From assembly GCA_034002465.1 (NCBI GenBank), contig JAVFAO010000001.1:1086-65085 (forward strand): 64,000 nucleotides of DNA, read 5' to 3'. The position numbers and the translations under genes were made by a program. Position 1 is the stretch's first letter. Each line of letters starts with the position of its first letter. The notes under the pieces are model-generated. The model was not told the DNA's origin. It saw only the letters and a program-made list of their open reading frames with translations, and made no database searches. Positions 9,563-61,013 of this stretch are shown piece after piece. This DNA is from Myxococcota bacterium. GTDB lineage: Bacteria > Myxococcota_A > Bradymonadia > UBA4248 > JAVFAO01.

Positions 9563-9569
9563 TTTGGCG

Positions 9570-10673: not shown

Positions 10674-10700
10674 CGAGGCACAGCGTCCAAGCGCGGCTTC

Positions 10701-11017: not shown

Positions 11018-11117
11018 GAAGAGCAATCAAGCCTCTTGCAGGGGTAGCGTTTTGGAACAAGGCTCTGTCGTCAGCAGCGCAGGAACACGGGGCACTCAGT
11101 ACCCCAGCCAAGAGGAA

Positions 11118-11154
11118 CTGGGGGGAACAGGCCAAGCGCCCCATCGACAAGAAC
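11118..11154 (+). repeat. Family-1 repeat, single unit
   Basis: ctggggggaacaggccaagcgccccatcgacaagaac, 15 bp upstream of the rhomboid start. Confidence 0.85.
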
Positions 11155-11168
11155 TCATCGACGAAGGC

Positions 11169-19517: not shown

Positions 19518-20584
19518 GCGTGGCGCTCGAGGTAGCGGGAGCGCAGGGCCTGACGTGCGGCTTGCAGGCGCTGATCAAGGTTCCAAGAGCAGCCTTGCAC
19601 GAAGTCGAGTACGGAGATGCGAGCATGGCGCAAATCTTCGAGGCGCGCAGCATCGGCACGCCGCTGGTTGAGGTCTTGTAGCACGGCGCTTTGTCGGCAG
19701 GCGTCTCCGATGCCATCGCCGTCTCGGTCCCACTGCTTGGGGTTGGGAACCTCAGGGCAGTTGTCGCAGACATCGCCAATGCCATCGTCGTCCTGGTCGG
19801 CTTGGTCGGGGTTGGCGTGGCGTGGGCAGTTATCAGGACCAGTGAGGGATGGACAGGGACTATTCTGAGGATAGCCACCGATGATGCCGTCGGCGTCAGC
19901 GTCATAGCTGCACCAGGGTCCGCACGGCGACATGCAGGTCATCTCACTGGCGCAGGCGCTGCCCATGTCGCCGAAGAAATCACAGGCCACCGCCTGCTCT
20001 GGGTTCGGGGCGAAGGGGCAGTTGTCGGTAGCGTCAGCGATGCCGTCGCCATCTCGGTCGTCGTTGTCATCGCAGAGGTCGCCGAAGCCATCGGCGTCTT
20101 GGTCGGTCTGCTCGGGGTTTGCGATGTAGGGACAGTTGTCGAAGACGTCAGGGACGGCGTCGGCGTCGCTGTCGAGTCGGCAGCGGTCATCACAGCAGTC
20201 GAGGGAGTTAGGGTCGAAGCTACAGGCATCTCCGATGCCATCACCATCTTGATCCTGCTGGTCTGGGTTGGCTGCGAATGGGCAGTTGTCGCTGCGATTG
20301 GGGATGCCGTCAGCGTCGTGGTCGGGGTTGCCGGTGGTGTCAAGGCTGGTGTCGACTTCGACGCTATCGGCATCGGCGGGCAGCTCCGCATTGGGCTCGA
20401 GCTCGGTGACCCGGACATGGTCTCGACAACCGACGAGGCTCGCTCCCAGGGCCAGCAGCAGGCCAATGAAGGGGAGCAGCGCCGAGAGCTGGGCTTGGCA
20501 TCCGAGAAGCGAGACGCTGAGTGCGAAGCAGATGCTGCACAGGAGCAGAAGGGAGCGCCACTGAGCTTGGCTGTGTCGCAGCAT
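19514..20584 (-). CDS. Thrombospondin type 3 repeat (TSP3) lipoprotein
   Basis: About 8 calcium-binding TSP3 repeats (DNCPxxxNPDQxDxDxDGxGDxCD), two lipobox-like segments (SLLGC, SLVGC) and a Cys-rich insert. Confidence 0.8.
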
Positions 20585-20961
20585 GTTGTCCTCGTGTTGT
20601 CGGAATGCCTCGGTTCTTTCAAGCTACGCAGATTGGAGGCTGTGCTAGGTGGACCTGGGCCTCGCATTCGGCCGCGCGCTGCTGCTGCCTGGACCGATGC
20701 TGTGTTTCGATGGCGTCGATGCAGACGAAGTCGTTGCAGGGAGCCAGCACGAAGAGCATAGGGAGTTTTGGGGTTGGAATCCAGATGTATTCGCTCGCTC
20801 TCGGAAACCGAGCCCATTGCAGCAGCAATTCTCCTGGGATACCAGGAGGACGTGAGTCTTTCGCGCAGTTGCGACTGCGCTCCACTGTACGTTCCTGAGC
20901 CATCCACAACGGCCTACGGGCTCTCCGAGCGACTTCGGGGCGTGTCGCTCTCCACTCCTCG

Positions 20962-20998
20962 CCAGAAGGGCTAGCCCTTAGGAATCCTTTTCTTTCTC
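20962..20998 (+). repeat. Family-2 element, partial copy
   Basis: ccagAAGGGCTAGCCCTTaggaatccttttctttctc; hairpin 2 and the T-rich tail only. Confidence 0.65.
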
Positions 20999-21105
20999 GA
21001 GTCGATACAGGAGCGGTTTTGATGCTATCGCAAGGTTGACGCTTCGCTACCTTGGCCACTAGAAGCGTTGGCTGCTGGCAGGTGCACCGGCGCGCGGAGG
21101 CAAGC

Positions 21106-26144: not shown

Positions 26145-26189
26145 GCGTCACTCGTTGCTGCTCTGGGCCCTTTTGGGGTGATGGATTTC

Positions 26190-26226
26190 GTGTCGATTGG
26201 GCGCTTGTCCTGTTCCCCCAAGTTGT
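26190..26226 (-). repeat. Family-1 repeat, single unit
   Basis: gtgtcgattgggcgcttgtcctgttcccccaagttg. Confidence 0.85.
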
Positions 26227-26302
26227 TGTGTGCCATCCCTGGCACGCATTCTTCGGGCTGCCATCGCAGCGAGTCTCTGCCTCCTGGCTTCGACTTGTCT
26301 TG

Positions 26303-26352
26303 GTGGGGCGCTGCCGCCTAAGGTCTAGCCTTTGGAATCCCTTCTCTTTTTG
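26303..26352 (+). repeat. Family-2 double-hairpin element (degenerate)
   Basis: ggtggggcgctgccgcctaaggtctagcctttggaatcccttctctttttg, between convergent genes. Confidence 0.65.
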
Positions 26353-26366
26353 ATGTCGAGATGGGG

Positions 26367-31196: not shown

Positions 31197-31360
31197 GGCC
31201 ATGCAAAGAGGCAGCGAAGGTGCATACCCGGTCATGAAGCGGGGGCATAGCTCGAGAGCGGGCGACTGCATTGACGAGGACGGAGCAGCGGGGCATTGAG
31301 GTGATGGGCTCTGAACGCGGACGGTGTGGCTCTTGGTGAGCGGCGTTCGATGGACAAAGC

Positions 31361-34300
31361 ATGCAGGACCTGGTTGCGATACGAGCTTTGCTATTCTTGG
31401 TCCGACGCGAGCTGCTGCGGCGACGGGCGTTGGAGGTGGGCGCGTATAGTTTTCTAGCGCTCGCGGCGAGCCTTACGCTGTGGTGGTTGTCGAGTCCAAG
31501 CGGCTTGGTGTGGGGGCTGCTGGCGTGGGCGAGCCTGCTTGTGGCGGTTTTGGTGCCGAGTTGGCTGTTGTTGTGGCCAGCTTGGTGGCGCACGCGCAGT
31601 GAGCAGGGCACGGCTCGTGAGCTGGAGCGCTTTGAGCCAGCGTTTCGCGATGACTTGTCAACGAGCTTGCAGTTTTCGGCGCTGTTGCAGCAGCAGCCCG
31701 AGTCGGCTCAGGTCCTTGGGGCGAGGGCGGAGCTGGCGCGAGCCCAGATTCGACATAGCGCGCAGCGTGCTCGACGCTATGCAATGCAAGCGTCGACGCT
31801 TTTCGTTCGGCACAAGCTGGTGGGGGTGAGCGCGGCTGGGTTGACGCTGAGCGTTGTGCTGCTATTTGGCTCTGCGCTCTATCCGTCTCGCAGTTCGGAG
31901 CTGCTCTCGCTCTTCCTGGGGAACGCCGAGCGAGCATTACAGATTGTCGGTTTTCACAGCGTGGATGAGCCGCCCACCGAGCGGCCGCTGGTCGGGCAAC
32001 TTCACATCGAGCTGATTCCGCCCGCATACAGTGGTCTGCACAGTCGTCAGTTCTTCAACAGCACGGGTGATTTCGAGCTGCTCAAAGGGACGGAGCTGCG
32101 TTTCGAGGGCAAGCTGCTTGAGGACGCGGACGCGGTGACTTTGGTGTTCGAGGGCAACGACGGGACGCAGCTCGAACAGGCGATGCTGTGCGAGGGAAGC
32201 TCGGTGAGCGGCAGCTTCGTGGCCTTGCACTCGGGGTGGTATCGTTTTCGTTTGCGGTCCTCATCGTCAGGAATACTCGAACACGATCTTCGACGGCGTC
32301 TCGATGTGGTGCCCGATATGGCGCCGAGCGTGGTGATCGATGCAGCAGCGAGCTCGGTGGAGGTGACTGCGGATGAGATGCTTGCTTTTCGCATTCGGGC
32401 TTTCGATGACTATGGCCTGTCTGCCATCGAGCTCGAGCTTGCGATAGAGGGGGCGCAGACGCCTGCCAAGGTGGTGAAGGTGGCCCGTCTGTCGCGTCAG
32501 TCGAATTGGGCTGACGAGGTGCAGCTCGAGCTATCAGAGATGGCGCTGCAGCCCAAGGACGTGTTGGTGGTGCATGCGTTGGCTTGGGACAACGATGAGG
32601 TGTCGTCTCCGAAGTCGTCGCGCAGCGCGCCCGTGTATTTGCGGGTGTCGAGTCCCGAGGATCGGCACGAGGCATTGTTGCGTGCCGAGGAGTCGATGCT
32701 CGACGACTTGTTGTTGCTGCTTGCCGATGAGCTGGAGGCGCCGTTGCAGGCGGACGAGCCGGGTCAGGCGCCGAGCGAGGGGCAGCGTGTGGCGGAGCAG
32801 GAGCTTGGAGAGCGCTTGGCATCGGCCAGTTTCTTGAGTGACCGTCGGGCCGAGGTGCTGCGGGCGATGGCGAGCTTGGGGGAGATGCTCGCTGCGGACG
32901 GTCTGATGCTGCGGCGCGATGTGGAGCTTTTCGAGCATTTGCGGCAGGTGATGAGCCAGATGCAGTCGAAGGCAGGATTGCAGCTGGAGCGATTGGCGCT
33001 TTTGCATGCGGCGGGTCAGCTGCATGAGGAGGAGCTCCGTGTGTATACACGAATGCATCGTCTCCCTCAGATTGAGCAGACCGAGCGGGCGCTCATTTTG
33101 CTCAAGGAGATGGTGCTTAGCCAGTGGATGGATGCTGCGCAGTTGACCGTCAACAGTATTCACGAGCGGATAGAGCGTTTGCGAGCTTTGGCCTTGCAAC
33201 TGGAGACGGTCAATGACCCTCGGCTGCGGGCGGAGATGGAAGCGGAGATGGCGCGCTTGCAGCGAGAGCTTGATGAGCTGCTTGGTCGGCTCGCGCAGCA
33301 GTCCGAGAAGCTGCCGAGCGAGCATGTCAACGCGGAGGCGATGAAGGCTTCGGATGCGCGCAAGCTGGCGTCGCGTGCTGAGGAGATGCGCCAACTCTTG
33401 GATGAGGGGCGGATTGAAGATGTGTTGTCGATGCTCGACGAGCTCGACGCAGAGCTGCAGTCGATGTTGGCGGTCGCGGATCAGTATACCAGCGCAGGCG
33501 GGAGCGCGACGTCTCGGATGGATGAGCAGGCGAGTGCATTCTTGGATAGCGTCAACGATCTGGCCGAGGCGCAGGCTGGTCTGGAGAAGCGTGGCCAGCG
33601 CTTGCGGGATGCGATGCGAGAGCGTATTCGAGCCGAGCACAGTGTTGAGCTGGACGGCTTGTCGCAGCGTCAGTCGCGGCGCTTGGCTGCGTTGGGGCGT
33701 CAGCTTCACGCATTGGATGCTCAAGTGCCTGGAGATATGGCGGTTTCTTCTGCTCGCCGAGTGTTGGAGCAGGCACAGCAGCTCAACGAAGCGGGCGATC
33801 TTGATGGATTGAGGCAGGCCATCGAGCGTTTTCGAGAGCGTCAAAGCGAGGCGCAGGCAGAGGCTTTGGATGCGTATTTCGACGCGGAGCCCGGTTCGCC
33901 AGAGCGGGTGGCGGCGCGTGAGCGAGAGTCGGCTTGGAGGCAGATGGACGAGCTTTCCCAAATGATCGAGGGCGAGCTCGATTCGGCGTCGCGAGCGCTG
34001 CAGGTCGAGCCCAGTCCTGACGATCACGACGAGATGCTCGAGCAGCAGCAGGTGCAGCGGGCTCTGCGTGACTCTGCAGGGGAATTGGGGGAGCAGCTTG
34101 GGCAGATGGCGGACGCGTTTCCGGCGATGGCTGAGCAGTTGCAGCCCCACTTCGAAGAAGCGGTGGGTTTCATGCGCTCAGCGGAGGAGGAGCTTGGGGA
34201 AGCAACGCTCGGGGAGGCGCTGGAGGCGGAGCGGCAAGCGTTGCGTTCGTTGCAGGCGATGAAGCGTCAGCTTCAGCAGAATCTTCAGAAGGAGCGAATG

Positions 34301-34468
34301 GCAGATTCGCGACGCAAGCCCTCGCCGGTGGAGCGTGTTGCGATACCCGAAGCGGATCGGAGTGCTCCTCGCGCGTTTCGTGAGGACATTCTCGAGGCGA
34401 TGAAGCAGCAGGCCATACCTGGATACGAAGATGAAGCCAAGCTCTACTATCAATCCCTCATTGAGTAG
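31361..34468 (+). CDS. DUF4175-like large membrane-anchored coiled-coil protein (paralog of 3062-5254)
   Basis: 1035 aa. Two N-terminal TM helices, IELIPPAYSG, long coiled-coil segments, and the C-terminal motif IPGYEDEAKLYYQSLIE resembling VPPGYRHYVERYFDFI of the first paralog. Confidence 0.65.
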   Translation: MQDLVAIRALLFLVRRELLRRRALEVGAYSFLALAASLTLWWLSSPSGLVWGLLAWASLLVAVLVPSWLLLWPAWWRTRSEQGTARELERFEPAFRDDLSTSLQFSALLQQQPESAQVLGARAELARAQIRHSAQRARRYAMQASTLFVRHKLVGVSAAGLTLSVVLLFGSALYPSRSSELLSLFLGNAERALQIVGFHSVDEPPTERPLVGQLHIELIPPAYSGLHSRQFFNSTGDFELLKGTELRFEGKLLEDADAVTLVFEGNDGTQLEQAMLCEGSSVSGSFVALHSGWYRFRLRSSSSGILEHDLRRRLDVVPDMAPSVVIDAAASSVEVTADEMLAFRIRAFDDYGLSAIELELAIEGAQTPAKVVKVARLSRQSNWADEVQLELSEMALQPKDVLVVHALAWDNDEVSSPKSSRSAPVYLRVSSPEDRHEALLRAEESMLDDLLLLLADELEAPLQADEPGQAPSEGQRVAEQELGERLASASFLSDRRAEVLRAMASLGEMLAADGLMLRRDVELFEHLRQVMSQMQSKAGLQLERLALLHAAGQLHEEELRVYTRMHRLPQIEQTERALILLKEMVLSQWMDAAQLTVNSIHERIERLRALALQLETVNDPRLRAEMEAEMARLQRELDELLGRLAQQSEKLPSEHVNAEAMKASDARKLASRAEEMRQLLDEGRIEDVLSMLDELDAELQSMLAVADQYTSAGGSATSRMDEQASAFLDSVNDLAEAQAGLEKRGQRLRDAMRERIRAEHSVELDGLSQRQSRRLAALGRQLHALDAQVPGDMAVSSARRVLEQAQQLNEAGDLDGLRQAIERFRERQSEAQAEALDAYFDAEPGSPERVAARERESAWRQMDELSQMIEGELDSASRALQVEPSPDDHDEMLEQQQVQRALRDSAGELGEQLGQMADAFPAMAEQLQPHFEEAVGFMRSAEEELGEATLGEALEAERQALRSLQAMKRQLQQNLQKERMADSRRKPSPVERVAIPEADRSAPRAFREDILEAMKQQAIPGYEDEAKLYYQSLIE

Positions 34469-36044
34469 CCTCTCGGTCGGGGTGCTCTTGTGCGCGAGTG
34501 TGCTGTGCGCTGTTGGTAGCGCTCAGTCGGCTGAGGATGCGTTCTTTGTCCGGGCGCAGGACGCATTGGAGTCGCTCGACTTGGCGCAGGTCCGGCAGAT
34601 GCTCGAGGAGGTCGAGGGCGACGATGACTTTCGTGTGGAGCTCTTACGAGGGCGCTTGCGCTTCTATGAGGGGGACTATGCGGAGGCGGTGACGCTGATG
34701 AAGCAGGCCATCGAGCGAGGGGGTGCGGCGGCTCGGGCGTATGAGCCCGAGCTCAGCTTGGTGGAGGCCACCGAGGCGTTGACCCGGGAGCATGTGCGTG
34801 TGCGCAGCAACGATGGTCGTTTCGAACTGAGCTATCCCCCTGGCAAGGATGCGGTCTTGGTCGACTTTACTTTCAGTGCGATGGCTGCGGCGTACGAGGC
34901 CTTCGGCGAGGATTTTGGTGTGCGTCCGAGCGAGCCGATACGCATTGAGGTGTATTCTTCTCCTGATGATCTGGCCAAGGTGTCCAGCTTGACGGAGAGT
35001 GATGTGGCGACCACCTCCACGATCGCGCTCAGTAAGTACAACCGGATCATGCTGACAAGTCCGTTGGCGTTGATGCGTGGCTATGCTTGGCTCGACACGT
35101 TGGTGCATGAGTATTGCCACATGATCATTGCTCAGGCGGGTGGTCCGGGCGTTCCCATTTGGGTACACGAGGGGCTGGCGAAGTTTTCGGAGCGGCGATG
35201 GCGGGGGGGCGATGAGCAGCGCTTGTTGCCGGCGCAGCTTGATTATCTCTTGTATACAAGGGCAAAGCAAGGGCGGTTGGTGAGTTTTGCCCAGATGCAC
35301 CCATCGATCGCCAAATTGCCTGATCAGGAAGACGCCTCAATGGCATACGCCGAGGTCTTTGCTGCGATGGAGTTGGTGTATTCTAAGCATGGAATGATCG
35401 GTTTGCGTGAGATGCTTGGGCTGATCGCCGAAGGGCAGCGTGCCGAGGCAGCATTCGAGACTGTGCTCGCCTCCTCCTTTTCAGACTTCGAGCGTTCTTG
35501 GAAAGCGCACATGCTGCAGCGGGAGCGGCGCTATGAAGGGGAGGAGCCTCCCGATGTGTTCGAGCAGATAGCCTTTCGAAAGGATGCATCGGTGGGAGAG
35601 GACGATGATGTCTCACTGATTGGCGAGGAAGGTGCTCGTCGTCTGGTCTATCTTGGGGATCTATTGCTCTCGAAGCAGCGTCCGAAGGCGGCGGCGGTGG
35701 AGTATCGCAAGGCGGCAGCGCTGATTGGCGGGAGCAATCCGGTGTTGCAGGCACGTTTGGGGCGAGCCTTGCTCGAGCAAGGGGAGTCGGCCCAGGCTGT
35801 GGAGGTGCTGCAGTCGGCACTCATCGAGGGGGAGCACTACATGACGCTCTTTGTGTATCTTGGGCGGGCGCTGAATCGTGAAGGGCGCTATGAGGAGGCG
35901 GAGCGGGCGCTTTGGGAAGCGGCGGCGATCAATCCTTTCGATCCCGCTATTCACGAGGAGTGGGCGCTGAGCTATCGTGCCCGTGGCGATGCGGAAGGGG
36001 AGCGGCGAGCCAAGGAGATGGTCGAGCTCTTGGCTGGTCACTAG
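34431..36044 (+). CDS. Secreted HExxH zinc-peptidase-like (peptidase MA-type) protein with C-terminal TPR repeats
   Basis: Signal peptide SVGVLLCASVLCAVGSA, LVHEYCHMII..VHEGLAKF (HExxH plus a downstream E), and TPR-like C-terminal helices. Overlaps the upstream gene by 38 bp. Confidence 0.6.
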   Translation: MKPSSTINPSLSSLSVGVLLCASVLCAVGSAQSAEDAFFVRAQDALESLDLAQVRQMLEEVEGDDDFRVELLRGRLRFYEGDYAEAVTLMKQAIERGGAAARAYEPELSLVEATEALTREHVRVRSNDGRFELSYPPGKDAVLVDFTFSAMAAAYEAFGEDFGVRPSEPIRIEVYSSPDDLAKVSSLTESDVATTSTIALSKYNRIMLTSPLALMRGYAWLDTLVHEYCHMIIAQAGGPGVPIWVHEGLAKFSERRWRGGDEQRLLPAQLDYLLYTRAKQGRLVSFAQMHPSIAKLPDQEDASMAYAEVFAAMELVYSKHGMIGLREMLGLIAEGQRAEAAFETVLASSFSDFERSWKAHMLQRERRYEGEEPPDVFEQIAFRKDASVGEDDDVSLIGEEGARRLVYLGDLLLSKQRPKAAAVEYRKAAALIGGSNPVLQARLGRALLEQGESAQAVEVLQSALIEGEHYMTLFVYLGRALNREGRYEEAERALWEAAAINPFDPAIHEEWALSYRARGDAEGERRAKEMVELLAGH

Positions 36045-36178
36045 TGAAGGGCGCCCATCCTTGCGCCATTCCGAAGGCGTGCAGCTTTCGAGCGCATGCG
36101 CTTCGACGTCTGCAAACAGAAGCCTGTCTTTCGCTAGCTTCGGTGGTGTCCCGATAACAAGCCGTTTGGGAGAGCGAT

Positions 36179-36436
36179 GTGGATGCGGAGTTGACGCTCG
36201 AGCTGTTTCGACACGCTCTGGTTTTGACCTTGCTTCTGGCCTTACCACCGCTGCTGGCGATTTGGTTGTTGGCGTGGCTCGTTGGGGCGCTGCAGGCGGT
36301 GCTTGGGATTCCCGATGCTTCCTTGGGGATGGTGCCGCGCTTCGTTTTGGCGCTCTTGGCTTGGGCGGCATCGCTGCCCTGGATCATGGCGGAGTTGTCG
36401 GCCTTTTCGCTGCTTCTCTTCGACTATGCGCTGTAA
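36179..36436 (+). CDS. FliQ/SctS-like two-helix membrane mini-protein (orphan)
   Basis: 85 aa. ALPPLLAIWLLAWLVGALQAVLGIPDASLGMVPRFVLALLAWAASLPWIMAEL parallels FliQ (..APLLL..LQAATQI.E.TL.FIPK...PWM..) in length and topology. Codon usage is coding-like. Confidence 0.45.
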   Translation: MDAELTLELFRHALVLTLLLALPPLLAIWLLAWLVGALQAVLGIPDASLGMVPRFVLALLAWAASLPWIMAELSAFSLLLFDYAL

Positions 36437-36439: not shown

Positions 36440-38356
36440 TCAGGGGAGCTCGTCACAGCCTTCGGGGATGGCGAGCTCTCGGCGGAAGCTGTGCTGGTTG
36501 AGGGTGGATTTCTTTTCGATTGGGCGCTTGTCCTGTTCCCCCAGGTTGTTTGCACGCAGCCAGGTCCAGGTTCCGGATTCGGTGCAGGCATCTGCTTCGA
36601 GGCCGTAAGTTTCGACGCTGATACGGCGGCTCGCGACGAGTTGGAGCGCGTCGAGGCCACGGGGGCGAACCTTGAGCTCGACGTGGATGGAGACCTTGGT
36701 GGGGTCGGTGAAGTAGCGATCGCAGGCTTCGAAGTTGTGTTCGAAGATGGGCTGAGGGCCGGTCTCGCTGAGGACGATACGATTCCAGGAGAGGCGGACC
36801 TTGTGCTTCGACTTGCCGGTGGCGAGCAGGTCGGCTTCGAAGTCTTGGCTGAGGGCCCGAATGTCGTTTGCGTTTGGGAATTCGAGCTCCTTGTCGAGCT
36901 TGAAGCTTTGTTCTGCTCCGCTCGAGTCGGTGCGGCTGAGCAGCAGGGGCTTGTGTTCTGCGGTGCTGTAGTACCAGCGGCGGATGACGCGTCGGTCGCG
37001 TTGTTCGCTCTCGAGACGGCCCATGACGTTACAGGGTTTCTCTTTGTATATTGCGTTCTTGGCGTACGCGGGTTGGCGATCGCGCGTCAGGCTCGCCTGG
37101 GTCTCTTCGACCACATAGAGCTCGCCCTTGGGGCTTGGCCAGTGTTGGACTGCAACGCGTTGCTCACTTTGTTCGCGTTGCTCTGGCTTTCCGCTTTGGC
37201 TCCAAAGCTTGGTTTCACTTTGACGTTCGAAGAAGCCGTGCGCGTTGAGCTCGAGCAGGTGCTGACGAGATTCGCCGCTCAGCGCTTGGTCGCCATCGGG
37301 TTCTAGCTGTTTGCCGTAGTCGAGCTGGATGTGGAGTCGTGGAGCGGTGGTCTCGGGGAACAGGCGAAGCTGCCCGGTGCGCAGGTCATCATCGTTGTTT
37401 TCGAATCGAAATCGCGCGATGGGGGCGAGCTCTGGCCAGGGCTCGTCGCTCTGTGGGTCGAGCTTGGTCTTGGGCGTGGGCAGGCCGAGGGGAGCGTCGA
37501 GCAGCTGGCGTTGGGCCAGTTGGGGATTGTTGGAGAGGGCGTTGAGCGGGTCGATGCGCAGGCCTTGCGTCGAGAGGGTGAGCAGCTCGCTGCCTTCGAG
37601 CTCGGGATAGAGGTCCCACTCGATGAACAGGGGCGAGGTGGCGTTGATGGTTTGGACCAGCTTGGGCTCGGCGGCGGGTGGGAGCGGTGAGAAGGGAGGC
37701 AGCTCAACGAAGCATGCTTGGGTTTCAGAGAAAGCGTAGAGGATGGGTTGTGTAGAGAGAACCAGAAGCACTGGAGGATCGCTGGGGAAAAGCCAACTGT
37801 CCCCCTCGGATGGGGCCACGCAGGGGGAGCCCTCTGGCAGCGGTGGCACAGGCATGAAGGGTCTTGACTCTGGCAAGGCGAGCCAACGTTCTTGTCGATT
37901 GGGCGCTTGGCCTGTTCCCCCAAGTTCTTGTTGATTGGGCACTTGGCCTGTTCCCCCAAGTTCTTGTTGATTGGGCACTTGGCCTGTTCCCCCAAGTTCT
38001 TGTTGATTGGGCACTTGGCCTGTTCCCCCAATGACTTCGCCGAGCTCACCGGGCTGCACGAAGCGTTCGGCGAGGGCTTGGTTGCAGGCGGCCCAGGCAG
38101 GGCTGGCGGGTGGATAGATGAGGGTGAACGCAGGGGCTGGTGGTGCTTCGGCGAGGTCTTCGGTGGCTGGCTCAGGAGGTGGAGCTTGGACGGTGTCTGT
38201 GAGGGGCTGCTCGGCAGTGGTATCTGTTTGGGGAGCGTTCTGCTCTGGGGGCGGTGTTGGGGCTTGTTCCTTGGGTGTGCATCCGAGGACGGTGGCAATG
38301 CCAAGGGTGACGGCGAGGCTCACGGCAACGCGGCGGGGGTGAGGGGAGCTAGACAT
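36440..38356 (-). CDS. Hypothetical lipoprotein carrying in-frame family-1 repeat insertions
   Basis: Start MSSSPHPRRVAVSLAVTLGIATVLGC (lipobox). Contains (GTGQVPNQQELG)x4 from the array at 37891-38030 and NLGEQDKRPIEKK from the unit at 36514. The longest ORF extends to 38692. Confidence 0.6.
   Translation of the reverse strand: MSSSPHPRRVAVSLAVTLGIATVLGCTPKEQAPTPPPEQNAPQTDTTAEQPLTDTVQAPPPEPATEDLAEAPPAPAFTLIYPPASPAWAACNQALAERFVQPGELGEVIGGTGQVPNQQELGGTGQVPNQQELGGTGQVPNQQELGGTGQAPNRQERWLALPESRPFMPVPPLPEGSPCVAPSEGDSWLFPSDPPVLLVLSTQPILYAFSETQACFVELPPFSPLPPAAEPKLVQTINATSPLFIEWDLYPELEGSELLTLSTQGLRIDPLNALSNNPQLAQRQLLDAPLGLPTPKTKLDPQSDEPWPELAPIARFRFENNDDDLRTGQLRLFPETTAPRLHIQLDYGKQLEPDGDQALSGESRQHLLELNAHGFFERQSETKLWSQSGKPEQREQSEQRVAVQHWPSPKGELYVVEETQASLTRDRQPAYAKNAIYKEKPCNVMGRLESEQRDRRVIRRWYYSTAEHKPLLLSRTDSSGAEQSFKLDKELEFPNANDIRALSQDFEADLLATGKSKHKVRLSWNRIVLSETGPQPIFEHNFEACDRYFTDPTKVSIHVELKVRPRGLDALQLVASRRISVETYGLEADACTESGTWTWLRANNLGEQDKRPIEKKSTLNQHSFRRELAIPEGCDELP
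36514..36549 (-). repeat. Family-1 repeat, single unit
   Basis: ttttcgattgggcgcttgtcctgttcccccaggttg. Confidence 0.85.
37891..38030 (-). repeat. Family-1 repeat array, 4 units
   Basis: ttgt[ct]gattgggc[ga]cttggcctgttcccccaagttc, period 36; the last unit is truncated. Confidence 0.9.
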
Positions 38357-41382: not shown

Positions 41383-41442
41383 GTGGGGCTCTGCCCCACG
41401 CCCCGCCAAAGGGCTAGCCCTTTGGAATCCCTTCTCTTTTTC
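41383..41442 (+). terminator. Family-2 double-hairpin element; candidate bidirectional terminator between convergent genes
   Basis: GTGGGGCtctGCCCCAC gccccg CCAAAGGGCtaGCCCTTTGG aatcccttctctttttc. Two perfect hairpins followed by a T-rich run. Confidence 0.5.
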
Positions 41443-42780: not shown

Positions 42781-42803
42781 GGCTTCCTCAGTGGGACATT
42801 TTT

Positions 42804-42910
42804 TGTTGATTGGGCGCTTGGCCTGTTTCCCCAAGTTTTTGTCGATTGGGCGCTTGGCCTATTCCCCAAGTTTTTGTCGATTGGGCGCTTGGCCTGTGTT
42901 CCCAGCTTCT
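42804..42910 (-). repeat. Family-1 repeat array, 3 units
   Basis: ttgt[tc]gattgggcgcttggcct[ga]tt[tc]ccccaagttt, period 35-36. It overlaps the stop region of the 42859-44898 gene and sits 24 bp upstream of the 41497-42780 gene start. Confidence 0.9.
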
Positions 42911-44898
42911 TTTTCGTCGCGGGCCAAGGTGAGTGCTTCGATTTCGAGGAGTCGCTGTTGGAGCCGCTTCCATGCAAAGAGGAGAGTGTCGATGGGTACC
43001 GGCGCCTCACCCTCTCGATCGATGAACCGGGCGAAATCGATGCTTAGTTCCACCAAGCGACGTTGTTCTTCGAGCAGGGCTTGGAGGGTGGGCGAACGTT
43101 CGGGCTTGAGCGCGCGTGCGAACTCCTCGACTTGGAAGATGATTTGGCCCATTGCGCGCAAGAGGTTGAGGTAGCTGCCGTTTCGGTGCGCGTAGAGATC
43201 CCAGGTTCGCTCCCAGTGTGGGAGCTGAGGCCAGTCCAAGGACGCGCTGGAGAGCTCGGCAAACCAGGCGTGCATGGCAGCGAGTCGCTGGACCTGTCGA
43301 GCGACGTGCAAGCGGCTGAGCTCGAGGATGACGAGGTTGTGTCCTAGGCTTCGTTCTGCGACTGGAATACTCCGCCATCCTTCGATCCATTGGGATTGTT
43401 TCGGGGAGTCTTCGACGATGGGAGAGGGGACGCTGCGGCAGCGGTCGTCACCGCAGGCTTGGGCGATGCTTTGGTGCATGCGTTCGAGGGTGGCATCGAT
43501 TTCGGAGATGGCGAGCAGGACCTGTTCAACCTCAGCGATGCGTGCTGGAGAACGAATGGGGTCGAGGACCTCGCTGACGAAGGGGGTGAGGAGCTTTCCT
43601 CGTTTGCTGAGCCGGAGTGCCTCGGCTTGGAGGCGCTCCTTGCTGGGTGTGATGGCGAAGAACGCGGCGCGCCAGGCGACGCGGTCTTCGAGGACGGGAG
43701 GGGTGTCGTGTCCTTCGGAATCGAGGATCTCGGCGAAGCTTTGCCAGAGCAGGGCGTTGCCTTCATCCCAGTGGTGGAGGATGGCGAATTCGAGACCGAT
43801 CAGTTCGGCGACACGGAGGTCGACGGCGTTTTGGGTGGCGCTGAGTTCAGCGAGTATTTCTCCGGGTGTTTCTTCGTTTTTTCCGAGCGTGACGAGCAGG
43901 GCGCGCATCCCTTGCTGGGCGCGTTGCAAGGCCACTTGCATTTTCAGGCAGTAGTCGAGGCTGCTTGCAGCTCTGCTGACGGTTCGTACGCGCGCGGCGA
44001 TGCATTCTGCTGAGGGCGAGCCCTCTTGGGCAGAGACCAGACGTTCGAGGACTTTGCTCTCGGTGCTGTACTCAGAGACGGCGTCGGAGAGCGCCTCGCT
44101 CTGAGCGAGCCAGGCTTCAATGGCGAGCAGAGGGCCAGTGACGGAGCCTGCAGCATAGCTCCATCGGGCGTCGGTTTCGGTTCTGCTACGCCAGTCGAGC
44201 AAGGCTTCGTGTAAGCGCAGCATCAGCGCGAGTGCCGGCCGATGTCTGGCGAAGCGTGTGACCATTTTGGCATGTAGCCAGTCGCCGTCGAGTCGGCTTG
44301 CGTGCGAGTCGAGCTTTTCGAAGTTCTGGCGTTCGCGTTCGAGGTGACTGAGCAAGGGTTCATCTGCATGTTGCAGCTTGTCGGCGCTGAAGGCTTCGCG
44401 CAGTTTGTCGAGGGAGTCGACGAATGAGCGCGCAGCGAGCTCGAGTCGGCCCAGGGCCCAGAGAACGTTGCGATGCTGCTGCACGAGTTGATGCGCGCCC
44501 AAGGTCCAGGTGTGTGGATGGTGCCACTGCGGATCGACGCTGCATTGTAGAGTTGGTCGTGGTGTGGTGGCGAGAATGAGGGCTGATTCGGCGAGGGTAT
44601 GGTATTCTTCAAAGGCGTCGAGGACGGTTCGCCATTGCTGTCGCGCCTCAGGCTCGAGGCGCGTCTCAAGTGCTTCCGGTATGGCGATACTCTGTTTGAG
44701 TGCTTCGACCCCCGTTCTCCATGCGTGTTCTGGTGTTCCGACTTCATCGTAGCCAACCAGGTGTACGCTGGGGACGCGCAGTTCGGGCATGGGGTGGTCG
44801 ATTCGGTCTGCCGGGGTTTGGCATTGCGAGCAGGCGCCGAGCGACGCGCAGAGCGCGCTCAGGGCGAGTAAGCGCAGGCTTCCTGCAAACGTATGCAT
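42859..44898 (-). CDS. Large hypothetical lipoprotein, preceded by conserved leader element A
   Basis: Start MHTFAGSLRLLALSALCASLGAC (lipobox). Mostly helical, no known motif. The C-terminus is encoded by repeat units (..GNTGQAPNRQKLGE). The longest ORF extends to 45174. Confidence 0.6.
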   Translation of the reverse strand: MHTFAGSLRLLALSALCASLGACSQCQTPADRIDHPMPELRVPSVHLVGYDEVGTPEHAWRTGVEALKQSIAIPEALETRLEPEARQQWRTVLDAFEEYHTLAESALILATTPRPTLQCSVDPQWHHPHTWTLGAHQLVQQHRNVLWALGRLELAARSFVDSLDKLREAFSADKLQHADEPLLSHLERERQNFEKLDSHASRLDGDWLHAKMVTRFARHRPALALMLRLHEALLDWRSRTETDARWSYAAGSVTGPLLAIEAWLAQSEALSDAVSEYSTESKVLERLVSAQEGSPSAECIAARVRTVSRAASSLDYCLKMQVALQRAQQGMRALLVTLGKNEETPGEILAELSATQNAVDLRVAELIGLEFAILHHWDEGNALLWQSFAEILDSEGHDTPPVLEDRVAWRAAFFAITPSKERLQAEALRLSKRGKLLTPFVSEVLDPIRSPARIAEVEQVLLAISEIDATLERMHQSIAQACGDDRCRSVPSPIVEDSPKQSQWIEGWRSIPVAERSLGHNLVILELSRLHVARQVQRLAAMHAWFAELSSASLDWPQLPHWERTWDLYAHRNGSYLNLLRAMGQIIFQVEEFARALKPERSPTLQALLEEQRRLVELSIDFARFIDREGEAPVPIDTLLFAWKRLQQRLLEIEALTLARDEKEAGNTGQAPNRQKLGE

Positions 44899-44981
44899 TC
44901 GTTCGCTCGAGGGCACCGACCTCTCGACAACGACAATTCCTCCGGTATATCGAGAGGATGCGCTCCCCTCGCTCACTTTCG
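44896..44981 (-). promoter_or_regulatory. Conserved 5' leader element, copy A (includes the start codon)
   Basis: Reverse complement reads CGAAAGTGAGCGAGGGGagcgcATCCTCTCGAtataccggaggaattgtcgttGTCGAGAGGTCGGTGCCCtcGAGCGAACGAATG. Homologous to 58409-58479 and 60838-60995. Confidence 0.6.
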
Positions 44982-45366
44982 CTTGCAAGATGCCTCTGGT
45001 TGGTCGTTTCGGGGGCCGAGTCCGAACGAGAGCGGAGCGAATTGGGTCGCGATTTCGCTTGCGCTCGCTCGGTCTTCGCGGTGCTTGGGCGGGCATTGGA
45101 TGTGCACCTCCAGATGCCGACTCAGATGCGCGGCGCGTGCTTCCTGTGCTGGCTGGGCGAAGTAGAGGGAACATGTGGAATCGACTCGCTTGAGCTCAGT
45201 GGGTGGTGACCCGGTTGCTTGTGGGAGTGCGAAGCAGAACCAAAAGAAAAAAAGGTGCACTGAAGGGCACTTCACGGCTTGCCGCGGGAGTGACCTAATC
45301 GGTAGTGTATACCCCCCTGCTTGTGCTTTCCACACAGGCATCTTGGAGAACGTCGAGGACACGTCG

Positions 45367-58151: not shown

Positions 58152-58408
58152 GCAAAACTCCCAAGCTGGTTCCTGGTGTACTATTTCAGAGTCGGTGAGC
58201 GAGCTGGTATCTCTGGACAGAGCGCGTGCTCAGCGCGCTGCAGCAGCAACACCGCTCGCGAGATGCCCTCTCCTTGACTCCATATCATTGCCCCCCATTG
58301 GATGCAATCAGCTGCACGCGCCAACGCCAGACGGGCTTTTCTCTGTCGGGCTCATGACGCTCAGCAGCATTCTTGCTATGCTCAGAGGCGGGAGTGCTGG
58401 ATTGCAAT

Positions 58409-58479
58409 CGAAAGCGAGCGAAGGGTGCTCCATTCTCGCGAGTCATCGAGCGAGGTCGGTACCCGAGAGCGAGCGAATG
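58409..58479 (+). promoter_or_regulatory. Conserved 5' leader element, copy B (minimal form)
   Basis: CGAAAGCGAGCGAAGGGtgctccATTCTCGCGAgtcaTCGAGCGAGGTCGGTACCCGAGAGCGAGCGAATG, 17 bp upstream of the CRTAC1-like gene start. Confidence 0.6.
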
Positions 58480-58495
58480 CAAAGGTGAGGTGGGC

Positions 58496-60703
58496 ATGAG
58501 GCAAGCTTGGCTGATCGTTTGTTGTGGGCTCGCACTGTGCAGCTATGGCTGCGATGACGAGAAGAAGACGCCTCCCCCCGATGAGGTCGACAGTGGCGAT
58601 ATCCAGGGCGATATCCAGGTCGATGCAGAGCTCGATGAAGAGCTCGCTCCAGACGAGCACGACGCGGAAGCTGACGACACCCAGCACGACGACGCTGCGA
58701 GTTGTCCCCTCGAGGTCCCTCTGAGCGTGAGCATCGAGGGGCTGCCCGAGCTGCTGCCGCAGAACACGCGAGAGCTGAGCGTGACGCTACGCTTCTCACG
58801 CGAGCTCTCGGCCTTTCCGCCCGAGAGCGTGCAGCTCGATGGGGGAGCTCAGCTCAATCTGACGGGGGCTGGCGCCGAGTACCATCTGGCCATCTCAGGT
58901 CTCCAGCTCAATGGCGCCTATGCGCTTCGTATTCTCGGTGCTGCGCAAGGGCCCCTCGATCAGTGCGGTGACGGTTTGCCCGATGCGCTCGAGCAAGCAT
59001 TCTACGTCGATGGATGGTCCCTGCGCGAGCCCTGGCAGAGCGCGGCCCTTGCCGAGCGCAGCGCTCCGCTCTTCGCCAACATCAACGAAGAGGCTGGTTT
59101 GAACGGCAAAACCAGCGGGGACTCACGGGCTCAGATCGCCGATGTCGACGGCGACGGGCAGGAAGACCTGGTCGTATGGCCCACGAGTCGCACGCCAATG
59201 CACCCCAAGATCTTCCGTCGTCTTGGCCGTGGTACCCAGATCAGCTTCATGGAGGTCGCGACGTTGCTGGGGATCGGTGCCGCCGATGCGGCCATCTTCG
59301 TCTTCGGAGATGTCGACAACGATGGTGACCTCGACGCGTTCACAGGCACGGCGTACCAAAATCCGGGGACGGAGCTGGGCATCTGGCTCAACGACGGGCG
59401 CGGGGTCTTCTCACGCGTCGAAGACCCCGGTTTTGCTGGCGCCTTCGATCGGCGCTCGGCTGGTCACGATTACTACAAGACCATGTCCGCTGCCTCCTTT
59501 GCTGACTTCGATGGAGATGGCTGGCTCGACCTCTACATCGGGACCTGGTACTCCGGCTCAGCAAGCTCAGGTGGTCAGCTCTATCCCCCCGACGATGAGC
59601 TCTATCGCGGTGATGGCACGGGACATTTCACCCTCGTCGAGCTGCCGTCCCAGCACAACCCTCTCAGCGATACCCACAACCCAGAGCTGGTCGACATCAG
59701 TCGCGCCGCCTACGGCATCGCCGTCGCCGACTACGACGATGACGGAGACCTCGATATCTTCGTCAACAATTATGGCGCTGGGCGCCCTGCCTTTAACCCA
59801 CCGAGCCCACCGCTGTATATCGATCACAACTTCCTCTGGCGAAACGATGGTGACATGAGCTTCACCGATGTGGGCATCGAGGCGGGTGTCGCAGCCACCA
59901 TGCGTGGCATTGGCGGTGTTCAGGAGGAGAGTCCCGTGGTCATCGCGGGTGTCACCTATCCCTCGCCCATTGGCGGAAACGGCTTCGGTTGTCAGTGGTC
60001 CGATTTCGACAATGATGGAGATCTCGATCTCATTGTTGGCACCATTGCCCACCCAGATTATCCTCAGAGCGACAGGACGATGCTTCACGTCAACCAGGGT
60101 GATGGACGCTTCAGCGAAGAGAGCGCCGAGAGAGGACTCGAATACTACGAGGACGAGCTTCATCCAGTCTGGGTCGATGTCGATAACGACGGGCGACTCG
60201 ATCTCGTCGTGTCGCGTTTGCGGGGTGGCTCCAAGTGGGAGTTCTACTTCCAAGACGAGCAAGGCCACTTCGTCAAGCAGAGCTACGCCTTCACTGGGGT
60301 CGACATTCAACGACCCGGTCCGAGTGTCTGGTTCGATGTGGACGAGGACGGGGATCTCGACTTCTACCTGGCGCGAGATGGCGAGGGGATTCTCTACCGC
60401 AACCTCCTCGGTCAGGAGAACAACTGGCTGGTGTTCGAGCTCCACGCCAGTGCTCCGCGTGACGCCACTGGTGCCATGCTCAGCCTCGAGACCAGCACGG
60501 GGACGCAGCGCAGAGACATCAGCTCCGGAAATGGCCACTTCAACACCCAAAGCTCGCGACGGCTCCACTTTGGGCTGGGCGGCGACAATGGTGCCAAGAA
60601 TGTGAGCATTCGCTGGCCCAACGGTGAGATTCAAGAGTTGGGGGCGCTCAAGGCGAACCGGCGTTTGCGCGTGACCCAGGGCGGAAGCATCGAGATGTTT
60701 TAG
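58496..60703 (+). CDS. CRTAC1-family lipoprotein (FG-GAP/VCBS repeats plus ASPIC/UnbV C-terminal domain)
   Basis: Lipobox GLALCSYGC; an acidic linker; about 7 calcium-binding DxDxDG repeats (FGDVDNDGDLD etc.); C-terminal GNGHFNTQSSRRLHFGLG..VSIRWPNGEIQ. Confidence 0.8.
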   Translation: MRQAWLIVCCGLALCSYGCDDEKKTPPPDEVDSGDIQGDIQVDAELDEELAPDEHDAEADDTQHDDAASCPLEVPLSVSIEGLPELLPQNTRELSVTLRFSRELSAFPPESVQLDGGAQLNLTGAGAEYHLAISGLQLNGAYALRILGAAQGPLDQCGDGLPDALEQAFYVDGWSLREPWQSAALAERSAPLFANINEEAGLNGKTSGDSRAQIADVDGDGQEDLVVWPTSRTPMHPKIFRRLGRGTQISFMEVATLLGIGAADAAIFVFGDVDNDGDLDAFTGTAYQNPGTELGIWLNDGRGVFSRVEDPGFAGAFDRRSAGHDYYKTMSAASFADFDGDGWLDLYIGTWYSGSASSGGQLYPPDDELYRGDGTGHFTLVELPSQHNPLSDTHNPELVDISRAAYGIAVADYDDDGDLDIFVNNYGAGRPAFNPPSPPLYIDHNFLWRNDGDMSFTDVGIEAGVAATMRGIGGVQEESPVVIAGVTYPSPIGGNGFGCQWSDFDNDGDLDLIVGTIAHPDYPQSDRTMLHVNQGDGRFSEESAERGLEYYEDELHPVWVDVDNDGRLDLVVSRLRGGSKWEFYFQDEQGHFVKQSYAFTGVDIQRPGPSVWFDVDEDGDLDFYLARDGEGILYRNLLGQENNWLVFELHASAPRDATGAMLSLETSTGTQRRDISSGNGHFNTQSSRRLHFGLGGDNGAKNVSIRWPNGEIQELGALKANRRLRVTQGGSIEMF

Positions 60704-60837
60704 CTGCTTCCAGCCTGCGTGACGAGCTCGAGAGTGTTGCTCCATGTTCTCGGCAGGAATGCGGATTTCACTGGGTTCCTTCGTTGTTCTGGGCTGTGAC
60801 CAACTTCGACAAGCCTGCAAGTGGAGTCGAAGACCAC

Positions 60838-60995
60838 CGAAAGTGAGCGAAGGGCACGTATCCTCTCGACATTCCGCAGGAACTCGGAGCCAGAGGGCGG
60901 AGAGTCGCTGCGAAGCAAGCCCGAAGGGTGCCCGCCAGAGAACGCGGGCGACAATAGTAGCTGTCGAGAGGTCGGTGCCCGAGAGCGAACGAATG
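60838..60995 (+). promoter_or_regulatory. Conserved 5' leader element, copy C (extended loop)
   Basis: CGAAAGTGAGCGAAGGGcacgtATCCTCTCGAcattccgcaggaactcgg..(88-nt loop in total)..GTCGAGAGGTCGGTGCCCGAGAGCGAACGAATG. An SD gaggaggg and the ATG at 61014 follow. Confidence 0.6.
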
Positions 60996-61013
60996 CGAAA
61001 GAGGAGGGCAGCA

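What the first reader, a model, noticed from the sequence alone, without database searches (positions are those of the whole stretch)
44896..44981. Conserved structured leader element immediately 5' of three unrelated secreted-protein genes (copy A; start codon embedded)
Three loci share a roughly 75-160 nt element in the same orientation relative to the downstream gene: RC 44896-44981, 58409-58479 and 60838-60995. The shared architecture is CGAAAGTGAGCGAAGGG, N5-6, ATCCTCTCGA, a variable loop, GTCGAGAGGTCGGTGCCCGAGAGCGAACGAATG. CCTCTCGA and TCGAGAGG are reverse complements, which gives an 8-9 bp stem. An outer pairing also co-varies between copies: GGGCAC/GTGCCC in C and GAGGG/CCCTC in A. The downstream proteins are a lipoprotein, a CRTAC1-like protein and a Cys-rich repeat protein. 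They share no sequence similarity, so the conservation is in the upstream nucleic acid. In copy A the terminal ATG of the element is the start codon itself. I cannot match this to any riboswitch, leader or repeat family I know.
Basis: seen in the sequence. Interest (0 to 1): 0.85.

Follow-up and report, generated by a model that had tools for sequence, protein, structure and literature searches.

The report
Interspersed hairpin repeat, not a leader
The three look-alike hairpin sequences in front of the secreted-protein genes are real. They are copies of a small repeat scattered about once every 10 kb through this uncultured myxobacterial genome, including in frame inside a gene, so they are probably selfish repeat DNA and not a dedicated gene switch.

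Summary
Three 85-172 nt copies of one element lie at 44890-44989(-), 58401-58485(+) and 60830-61001(+). Each sits directly 5' of a different lipoprotein gene, and each folds as a long hairpin whose stems change in a compensating way.

I fished 79 kb more of the same Myxococcota MAG and found about ten further copies:
- a head-to-tail triplet with a 90-nt period, not beside any start codon;
- a tandem pair with a 99-nt period, in frame between FHA domains of a real FHA-ABC transporter gene;
- two antisense intergenic copies;
- copies upstream of the aconitase and an epimerase gene;
- several decayed relics.

Another copy interrupts an RHS-like ORF in a different Myxococcota MAG. Well-kept unit lengths are all multiples of three, and five of six frames lack stop codons. 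G-U and A-C mismatches are equally common, so nothing singles out an RNA strand.

The best reading is a non-autonomous interspersed palindromic repeat, resembling Rickettsia RPEs and mycobacterial MIRUs. It often lands at gene 5' ends in the sense orientation. It has no match in Rfam, plasmids, phages, viral contigs or JGI metagenome pattern scans. It is a new member of a known kind and of moderate interest.

The parts
44890..44989 (-). Copy A, a full 100-nt match of the repeat (90-nt unit plus flanking TGCAA). Its terminal ATG (44898-44896) is the likely start codon of lipoprotein gene 42859-44898(-).
   Evidence: R1 110.3 bits, E 1.6e-28. Sequence. Fold -40.8 kcal/mol, z -3.0. The signal peptide MHTFAGSLRLLALSALCASLGAC follows the ATG directly. 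Logan contig L010 ends inside this copy.
58401..58485 (+). Copy B, a short variant (15 nt shorter, apical part deleted). Its terminal ATG opens a 3-codon uORF (ATG CAA AGG TGA) that overlaps the Shine-Dalgarno sequence of the FG-GAP/ASPIC lipoprotein gene 58496-60703.
   Evidence: R1 82.4 bits, E 1e-20. Sequence. Pfam. Inner stem CTCGC/GCGAG is compensatory relative to A and C.
60830..61001 (+). Copy C, a long variant with a 72-nt insertion in the apical loop. It lies between the stop of gene B (60703) and the start of the Stig1 Cys-rich lipoprotein gene (61014). Its terminal ATG (60993) is in frame with that gene.
   Evidence: R1 97.4 bits, E 6.3e-25. Sequence. Fold -77.2 kcal/mol, z -4.3. 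Pfam.
20782..20881 (-). Copy D, a degenerate full-length copy with many stem mismatches. It lies about 200 nt upstream of the TSP3-repeat lipoprotein gene 19514-20584(-).
   Evidence: R1 37.1 bits, E 4.8e-8. Only 9 Watson-Crick pairs of 19. Gene.
36046..36203 (+). Relic. The 5' half (GAAGGGCGCCCATCCTTGCGCCATTCCGAAGG) starts right after the stop codon of gene 34431-36044. A possible 3' end, GAGAGCGATG, lies near 36170.
   Evidence: R2 15.4 bits, E 0.02. By eye, about 27 of 32 bases match the L004 copy.
31197..31274 (+). Possible relic that keeps only the outer motifs (TGCAA..AGCGAAGG ... CGAGAGCGGGCGACTGCA). It lies upstream of membrane-protein gene 31361-34468.
   Evidence: R1 13 bits, R2 15.2 bits, E 0.02-0.26. 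Weak, and listed as uncertain.

Best explanation
The element is one family of a small, non-autonomous, interspersed palindromic DNA repeat of this Myxococcota lineage.

Anatomy:
- The basic unit is 90 nt: (TGCAA)-CGAAAG-YGAGCGAAGGG-stem/loop-CCCGAGAGCGARCGAATGCA.
- It folds as a long imperfect hairpin with two GA-rich internal loops and a variable tip.

What is shown:
- It occurs about once per 10 kb.
- It occurs as single copies, as head-to-tail arrays, inside coding sequence in frame, and as decayed relics.

What is inferred:
- It spreads, or spread recently, at the DNA level through an unidentified enzyme acting in trans.
- It inserts next to TGCA-type sites, which its own 3' end recreates. 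That would allow tandem reinsertion.
- Copies persist where they do little harm. These places are gene 5' ends in the sense orientation, where the terminal ATG can serve as the start codon (A) or open a 2-6 codon uORF (B, L004, the L061 array), and protein linkers, because unit length is 3n and most frames lack stops.

Copies A-C are therefore insertions that happen to lie in front of three lipoprotein genes. The -30 to -77 kcal/mol hairpins next to the start codons probably modulate translation as a side effect and are not a dedicated regulon signal.
For: - Copy number and spread: 14 clear copies in 142.7 kb of the same MAG (window plus L060-L064), plus relics.
- Tandem triplet with an exact 90-nt period at L061 10923-11202(-), not adjacent to a start codon.
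- Tandem pair with a 99-nt period inside ORF L062 14701-18243. The frame is kept, with an FHA domain upstream (E 5e-12) and FHA domains plus ABC transporter domains downstream.
- Antisense copies at L061 15883-15986 and L063 232-328.
- Copies upstream of the aconitase and an epimerase gene.
- A copy interrupting an RHS/YD-like ORF in a second MAG of 66% G+C, against 61% here.
- Stems and even apical loops are nearly identical among the best copies, while other copies are decaying, with 9-10 of 19 pairs left.
- No strand asymmetry of wobble pairs: G-U 12 against A-C 9.
- Sharp boundaries, with nothing shared outside the element.
- Well-kept unit lengths are 90, 75, 162, 78, 87 and 99, all 3n. 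Five of six frames are stop-free.
- TGCA(A) sits at both ends of most copies.
- A Logan contig breaks inside copy A.
- The genome also carries other short repeat families, one of them translated in three different frames in different proteins.
Against: - No transposase or other mobilising gene was found in the 143 kb examined, and no empty site was available for comparison, so mobility is inferred and not shown.
- Terminal inverted repeats are at most about 8 nt (TGCAnTCG). The rest of the 'stem' keeps conserved purine-purine mismatches, which is unusual for a classical MITE.
- Orientation is biased to sense (10 of 12 events, one-sided binomial p about 0.02). It follows local gene direction and not the replication strand, because GC skew keeps one sign across the window while A and D are on the minus strand and B and C on the plus strand. 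This hints at selection or action at the transcript level.
- Six of 11 sites in this MAG adjoin 5' ends of exported-protein genes, against about 22% lipoprotein genes in the window. That is a mild enrichment.
- The 3n-length statistic is weak if degenerate copies are included (5 of 8, p about 0.09), and so is stop-codon depletion (p about 0.08).
- The extra loci were chosen through another repeat family, so the density estimate may be biased.
Confidence: 0.68

Rival explanations
1. The element is a dedicated cis-regulatory structured RNA leader. The hairpin in the 5' UTR binds a protein or ligand through its GA-rich loops and controls translation of envelope or secreted-protein genes by occluding the AUG region.
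For: - Compensatory stem changes.
- Conserved tandem G-A internal loops.
- The AUG is conserved at the 3' end and paired with the upstream UGCAA in A and B.
- Sense bias of 10:2.
- A, B, C and D, and L063 4059, lie upstream of exported proteins.
- No known family matches.
Against: - In-frame copies inside an FHA-ABC transporter ORF.
- A tandem triplet far from a start codon.
- Antisense copies.
- Copies before the aconitase and an epimerase gene.
- Four other lipoprotein genes in the window lack the element.
- Orthologues of gene A at 42% identity lack it.
- Stems and loops are too similar among copies for an old regulon, and other copies are decaying.
- No excess of G-U over A-C.
Confidence: 0.12
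2. The element is a host-domesticated REP-like RNA module. It is a repeat, but it is maintained because in transcripts it acts generally, for example as an RNase III or RNase E site, an mRNA stabiliser, or a translational-coupling device like a MIRU ORF.
For: - Sense-orientation bias tied to gene direction and not to the replication strand.
- Several copies start right at the stop codon of the upstream gene and end at or near the next start: C, L062 19404, L063 4059 and window 36046.
- The terminal AUG opens 2-6 codon uORFs.
- Published precedents for Correia, ERIC and MIRU effects (PMC10969869, PMC12548453).
Against: No expression data exist. Many copies are degenerate. The arrays and in-frame copies do not fit a single RNA-level role. 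There is no wobble-pair strand asymmetry.
Confidence: 0.12
3. The element is a coding repeat. The 30-residue unit (for example MQWEVSEGHASSRH..AAVERSVPESER) would be a peptide module, and the copies would be parts of proteins.
For: Unit lengths are multiples of three. Two sense frames are open. The element is translated inside the FHA-ABC protein. The long ORFs 42859-45174, 58373-60703 and 60744-63518 run through A, B and C.
Against: - Different copies would be read in three different frames (A and C; B; L004), as worked out.
- A-D lie upstream of N-terminal lipoprotein signal peptides, which must be at the protein's start.
- Substitutions pair up across the stem (for example T15/A161 against C15/G161 in 4 of 4 copies) and do not follow codon positions.
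- Antisense and intergenic copies exist.
Confidence: 0.04
4. The element is a site-specific recombination or phase-variation site shared by surface lipoprotein genes, as in Mycoplasma vsp/vpma-type 5' boxes. Inversion between inverted copies would swap expression.
For: A lies in inverted orientation relative to B and C within 16 kb, and all precede surface lipoprotein genes.
Against: - No recombinase was found in the window.
- The segment between the copies carries tig, clpP and other housekeeping genes.
- Loop length varies from 4 to more than 100 nt.
- Copies lie inside an ORF and next to metabolic genes elsewhere.
Confidence: 0.02

Closest known systems
Rickettsia palindromic elements (RPEs)
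   Same: Both are roughly 100-150 nt palindromic interspersed repeats found in intergenic DNA and also inserted in frame in unrelated protein-coding genes, adding a peptide to the host protein (PMC10969869). Here a tandem pair sits in frame in a linker between FHA domains.
   Different: The phylum differs and there is no sequence relationship. Here most copies are intergenic at 5' ends and only one in-frame site was seen. Tandem arrays occur. No single conserved reading frame is used across copies.
Mycobacterial interspersed repetitive units (MIRUs)
   Same: Both have 46-101 bp units, are often tandem, and are oriented like the flanking genes. MIRUs are reported to insert at start codons so that an ORF in the repeat couples to the gene (PMC12548453). 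Here the units are 90-99 nt and form arrays of 2-3, there is a sense bias, and the terminal ATG is used as a start (A) or opens a short uORF (B).
   Different: MIRUs are not long hairpins. The -4 nt ATGA overlap typical of MIRUs is not seen here. Array-length polymorphism between strains was not tested.
MITEs acting in 5' UTRs (Neisseria Correia/NEMIS, enterobacterial ERIC/RU elements)
   Same: Both are small non-coding repeats at about 10^2 copies that fold as hairpins when transcribed. They are frequently found just upstream of genes, can alter expression, and sometimes lie within genes and carry ORFs (PMC10969869, PMC2759123, PMC3184786).
   Different: Classical MITEs have clear terminal inverted repeats of 15-30 bp and target-site duplications. 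Here only TGCA(A) is shared by both ends, and the arms keep purine-purine mismatches.
REP/REPIN elements mobilised by RAYT transposases
   Same: Both are abundant G+C-rich hairpin repeats, clustered in arrays, non-autonomous, and acted on as hairpins (PMC3337134).
   Different: No 5' GTAG motif is present. The unit is two to three times longer. The arrays are head-to-tail, not alternating. Copies lie mainly at 5' and not 3' gene ends. No RAYT gene was seen in the DNA available.

Membership tests
MITE (miniature inverted-repeat transposable element) | Many dispersed copies of a small element without its own transposase gene | tested here: met
   14 clear copies of 75-172 nt in 142.7 kb of one MAG, with no ORF of their own.
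MITE (miniature inverted-repeat transposable element) | Terminal inverted repeats matching a parent insertion sequence | tested here: inconclusive
   Only about 8 nt (TGCAnTCG / CGAnTGCA) are complementary at the ends. Further in, both arms are purine-rich (GAGCGAA on both), as seen. No parent insertion sequence was available.
MITE (miniature inverted-repeat transposable element) | Target-site duplication flanking each copy, and empty sites in relatives | tested here: inconclusive
   TGCA(A) flanks most copies on both sides but cannot be told apart from element termini. No close relative exists for an empty-site test (next trigger factor is 34% identical).
Rickettsia palindromic element-like (in-frame selfish repeat) | Palindromic repeat inserted in frame within functional protein-coding genes | tested here: met
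   Two units lie in frame between FHA domains of L062 14701-18243. This is a single locus.
Rickettsia palindromic element-like (in-frame selfish repeat) | Sequence homology to an RPE family, and occurrence in Rickettsia | not tested
   The host is a Myxococcota MAG, not Rickettsia. No comparison with RPE sequences was run. The claim is analogy only, not membership.
MIRU-type tandem intergenic repeat | Units of 46-101 bp in tandem, oriented like the flanking genes | tested here: met
   Arrays of 3 x 90 nt and 2 x 99 nt. Sense orientation in 10 of 12 events.
MIRU-type tandem intergenic repeat | ORF in the repeat overlapping the stop and start codons of neighbouring genes (-4 coupling) | tested here: not met
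   No ATGA-type overlap is present. A uses the repeat's ATG directly. In B the uORF stop lies 8 nt before the start. C is an in-frame fusion.
REP/REPIN-RAYT | Short (20-40 nt) palindrome preceded by a conserved GTAG, with a RAYT gene in the genome | tested here: not met
   No GTAG is present and the unit is 90 nt. No Y1 transposase appears among the Pfam hits in the window or the fetched loci. The whole genome could not be searched.
IS200/IS605-derived palindrome-associated elements | Orientation tied to the replication strand | tested here: not met
   GC skew keeps one sign across the window, yet A and D are on the minus strand and B and C on the plus strand.
Curated cis-regulatory RNA or riboswitch family (Rfam) | Match to an Rfam covariance model | tested here: not met
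   No hit at gathering score, and none at E up to 10 around any copy beyond chance miRNA or lncRNA hits.
Curated cis-regulatory RNA or riboswitch family (Rfam) | Consistent location in the 5' UTR of functionally related genes | tested here: not met
   Copies occur inside an ORF, antisense, in an array remote from a start codon, and before the aconitase and an epimerase gene as well as lipoprotein genes.

The most novel reading that the evidence does not exclude
The repeat may be a 'translation-compatible' selfish element of a deep-branching Myxococcota lineage. It is a 3n-long, almost stop-free hairpin that targets TGCA/ATGCA sites at start codons and in protein linkers, brings its own ATG, and reinserts next to itself to build arrays. 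It coexists with a second 36-nt repeat that is read in three different frames in different proteins. Together they would be a new, tractable example outside Rickettsia and Mycobacterium of selfish DNA colonising and remodelling coding sequence, possibly with an unknown hairpin-recognising mobilisation enzyme.
Probability: 0.3. Interest if true: 0.55.

Novelty: new member of a known kind. Interest (0 to 1): 0.35.

Why it matters
The result prevents a false call. A sequence with stems, covariation and a fixed position before three genes looks like a new riboswitch-type leader, but it is a genome-wide repeat.

It also documents an undescribed repeat family in a poorly sampled Myxococcota lineage. 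This family behaves like Rickettsia RPEs and mycobacterial MIRUs: it inserts in frame in a real gene, forms tandem arrays and supplies start codons. That bears on how small selfish elements reshape gene starts and protein linkers.

In practice, such repeats break metagenome assemblies (one Logan contig ends inside copy A) and mislead gene callers into upstream start codons (ORFs 42859-45174 and 60744-63518).

Tried and rejected
**Searches that found nothing useful**
- Rfam at gathering and permissive thresholds on the window and on each copy: nothing.
Only L004 was real.
- Two metagenome pattern scans gave 0 real hits. Viral scans gave only chance matches. Plasmid and phage blastn found no match.
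- Synteny through trigger factor failed because the nearest relative is 34% identical.
- Several look-ups of NCBI-sourced proteins were not on record.

**Readings considered and dropped**
- Orthologues of gene A (P0121, P0122) carry no element. A possible relic upstream in L011 did not reach significance. A weak covariance-model hit at L011 4553-4644 is the coding end of an epimerase gene, so I rejected it.
- Sigma-70 promoter and terminator scans around the copies showed nothing consistent. By eye the sequence fits neither sigma-54 or ECF promoters nor integron attC sites, K-turns, or hammerhead, hairpin or HDV ribozyme cores.
- Weak hits near other lipoprotein genes (18594, 29216) were unconvincing.
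- The early impression of a G-U excess (4:0 in four sequences) vanished with 13 sequences (12:9).

**What worked**
- Translating a different 36-nt repeat of the genome and using it as a protein query recovered other contigs of the same MAG.
Full report
**1. The observation**

- The 26-nt 3' motif occurs exactly three times in the window, against none in 100 shuffles. The 17-nt 5' motif matches exactly at the same three places.
- Each copy folds into a long imperfect hairpin. Energies are -40.8 kcal/mol for A, -32.3 for B and -77.2 for C. The z-score is about -3 to -4 for A and C and -0.9 for B.
- Nothing outside the element is shared between the loci.
- The downstream genes are unrelated: no Pfam family, FG-GAP/ASPIC, and Stig1 Cys-rich. 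All three begin with lipobox signal peptides.
- In A the signal peptide follows the element's terminal ATG directly.
- No Rfam family matches, at gathering scores or at permissive E-values.

**2. Structure**

A copy from a second genome (L004; Myxococcota MAG BF4_123, 66% G+C against 61% here) allowed a four-sequence alignment.
- A 19-pair structure is 98.6% paired, and four pairs change on both sides. One example is T15-A161 in A and C against C15-G161 in B and L004.
- The outer part is a run of two-base-pair steps separated by tandem G-A / A-G loops (GYGAGCGAAGGG against CCCGAGAGCGARC).
- With 13 copies, 12 of 19 pairs show double changes and no shuffle reaches the observed covariation. That alignment was fitted to the model, so it leans towards the structure.
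- G-U (12) and A-C (9) mismatches are equally frequent. Nothing therefore marks the sense RNA strand as the selected one.
- Several copies have lost half their pairs.

**3. Where the lineage stands**

The window comes from an uncultured Myxococcota MAG. Its trigger factor is 100% identical to an NCBI/JGI MAG protein on a 77.9 kb contig, and the next best match is 34% identical. No close relatives are available.
- Orthologues of gene A at 42-43% identity have no element upstream.
- Strict and relaxed pattern scans of JGI metagenomes and viral contigs found nothing real. Blastn against plasmids and phages also found nothing.

**4. More of the same genome**

The window contains another, unrelated 36-nt repeat. 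I translated it and used it as a protein query. This returned 27 small 'hypothetical proteins', almost all carrying the same MAG's names (RBU37_ locus tags or JGI). It gave access to five further contigs totalling 78.7 kb.

The covariance model then found these copies:
- Three head-to-tail copies with an exact 90-nt period at L061 10923-11202(-), at 111, 83 and 105 bits. They lie in a divergent intergenic region with no start codon next to them.
- A degenerate antisense copy between two plus-strand genes (L061 15883-15986).
- A copy 35 nt upstream of the aconitase gene (L062 12227-12314).
- A copy that fills the gap between a gene's stop codon and the epimerase gene that follows it (L062 19404-19525).
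- A copy starting at a stop codon and preceding a gene for a signal-peptide protein with a weak, sub-threshold PagL match (L063 4059-4157).
- An antisense copy abutting the start of another lipoprotein gene (L063 232-328).
- Two tandem units with a 99-nt period at L062 15114-15323, inside ORF 14701-18243.

That last ORF is a genuine protein. It has an FHA domain upstream of the repeats (E 5e-12), FHA domains downstream (E 1.5e-30), then ABC transporter ATPase and membrane domains, all in one frame. The repeats are read as two 33-residue copies of VSEARHESASVAGASDAPAQRCEGLARANECKP. They directly follow one unit of the 36-nt repeat.

In the window itself there is a degenerate fourth copy at 20782-20881(-), about 200 nt upstream of a TSP3-repeat lipoprotein gene. 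There are also relics at 36046-36203 and 31197-31274. In L004 the element cuts into an RHS/YD-type ORF.

**5. What this means**

There are fourteen clear copies in 142.7 kb, about one per 10 kb. This may be an overestimate, because the extra loci were chosen through another repeat. Their features are those of an interspersed palindromic repeat and not of a gene-specific leader:
- sharp boundaries;
- near-identical stems and loops among the best copies;
- a spectrum of decay;
- tandem arrays;
- antisense copies;
- an in-frame intragenic pair.

Three further features fit the 'tolerated insertion' picture.
- Unit lengths of well-kept copies are 90, 75, 162, 78, 87 and 99 nt, all multiples of three. 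This holds for 5 of 5 variants with length changes, but only 5 of 8 if degenerate copies are counted (p about 0.09).
- Five of six frames of the unit are free of stop codons, a result reached by 7.6% of shuffles.
- TGCA(A) is present at both ends of most copies, and the element's own 3' end recreates it. This could explain head-to-tail reinsertion (inference).

**6. What does not fit a purely neutral repeat**
- Ten of twelve independent insertion events are in the sense orientation relative to the adjacent gene (one-sided p about 0.02).
- This orientation follows gene direction and not the replication strand. GC skew keeps one sign across the window, while A and D are on the minus strand and B and C on the plus strand.
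- Six of eleven sites in this MAG adjoin 5' ends of exported-protein genes, whereas about 8 of 36 genes in the window have lipoboxes. Four other lipoprotein genes in the window lack the element.
- The terminal ATG is used as a start (A), is in frame (C), or opens uORFs of 2-6 codons (B, L004, the L061 array).

These points leave room for an effect at the transcript level, or for filtering by selection. Published analogues include MIRUs, which insert at start codons with a coupled ORF (PMC12548453), and Correia and ERIC elements, which alter transcription, RNase processing and mRNA stability (PMC10969869).

**7. Comparison with known kinds**

In behaviour the element is closest to:
- Rickettsia RPEs, which are palindromic and insert in frame in genes (PMC10969869);
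- MIRUs, which are tandem, sense-oriented and sit at start codons;
- MITEs of the Correia and ERIC type that lie in 5' UTRs (PMC2759123, PMC3184786).

It is not a member of any of these by sequence. It also lacks several defining features: clear terminal inverted repeats, the REP GTAG motif, the MIRU -4 overlap, and the replication-strand bias of IS200/IS605 derivatives. No mobilising enzyme was seen in the DNA available, so mobility remains inferred.

**8. Verdict**

The element is an undescribed family, but of a known kind: a small interspersed hairpin repeat. The 'structured leader of secreted-protein genes' reading holds only in the sense that copies A-C probably influence translation of their neighbours. 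Interest is moderate. The more novel reading, a translation-compatible selfish element that targets start codons and linkers, is open and testable with the full MAG.

Noticed in passing
window 8531-8928, 9479-9586, 10693-10808, 11103-11179, 13829-14008, 26182-26227, 36505-36550, 37853-38093, 42795-42911; also L061 10080-10220 and L062 15091-15126: A second, unrelated repeat family: a 36-nt unit (TTGTCGATTGGGCGCTTGGCCTGTTCCCCCAAGTTC) in tandem runs, in both orientations, lying inside or at the ends of many different ORFs. It is translated in three different frames in different proteins (NLGEQAKRPIDQ, ELGGTGQVPNQQ, TWGSRPSAQSTR). It therefore spreads at the DNA level while keeping frames open. 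One unit directly abuts the in-frame pair of the hairpin repeat in L062.
   Followed up: partly
window 10959-11017 and 41383-41441 (inverted copies); partial copies at 20975-21004 and 26329-26358: A third repeat of about 59 nt with two G+C hairpins (AAAAAGAGAAGGGATTCCAAAGGG..CCCTTTGG..GTGGGGC..GCCCCAC), which looks terminator-like or REP-like. One partial copy lies about 100 nt upstream of degenerate copy D.
   Followed up: no
L061 10655-10718 (-), about 200 nt downstream of the tandem triplet on the same strand: A permuted tRNA-like module (T-arm, then acceptor, then D-arm) that matches Rfam YrlA (bacterial Y RNA-like) at 38.7 bits, E 1.4e-6, below the gathering score of 69. ARAGORN calls nothing there. 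No Ro/TROVE gene was seen in the 20 kb locus.
   Followed up: partly
L004 1-430 (-) and 433-2756 (-): In the other MAG the element is followed by a decaying tandem repeat of about 42 nt built around the palindrome CTCCGCTCAGCGGAG. It is preceded by frameshifted RHS/YD-repeat fragments, a small membrane protein and a 277-residue protein, a layout that resembles a polymorphic-toxin locus. The contig has only 2.9x coverage, so misassembly cannot be excluded.
   Followed up: partly
L010 13123 (equivalent to window about 44900): The Logan assembly contig of the same organism (SRR25572339) ends inside copy A, at ...GAGCGAACG. This is consistent with the repeat breaking short-read assembly.
   Followed up: no
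window 60744-60797: The long ORF that runs through copy C begins with a second lipobox-like N-terminus (MFSAGMRISLGSFVVLGC) upstream of the element. This could be chance or the trace of an older gene start displaced by the insertion.
   Followed up: no
L064 168-12696: The same MAG carries a contractile injection system-like cluster (two phage sheath genes, gp19-type tube genes, a CIS_tube/LysM protein and a 1715-residue protein). One small ORF in the cluster contains the 36-nt repeat.
   Followed up: no
window 22148-22309: An 18-nt tandem repeat (CTGTTGTTGGTACCCCTG) lies inside the Ser/Thr kinase gene 21923-23437(-).
   Followed up: no
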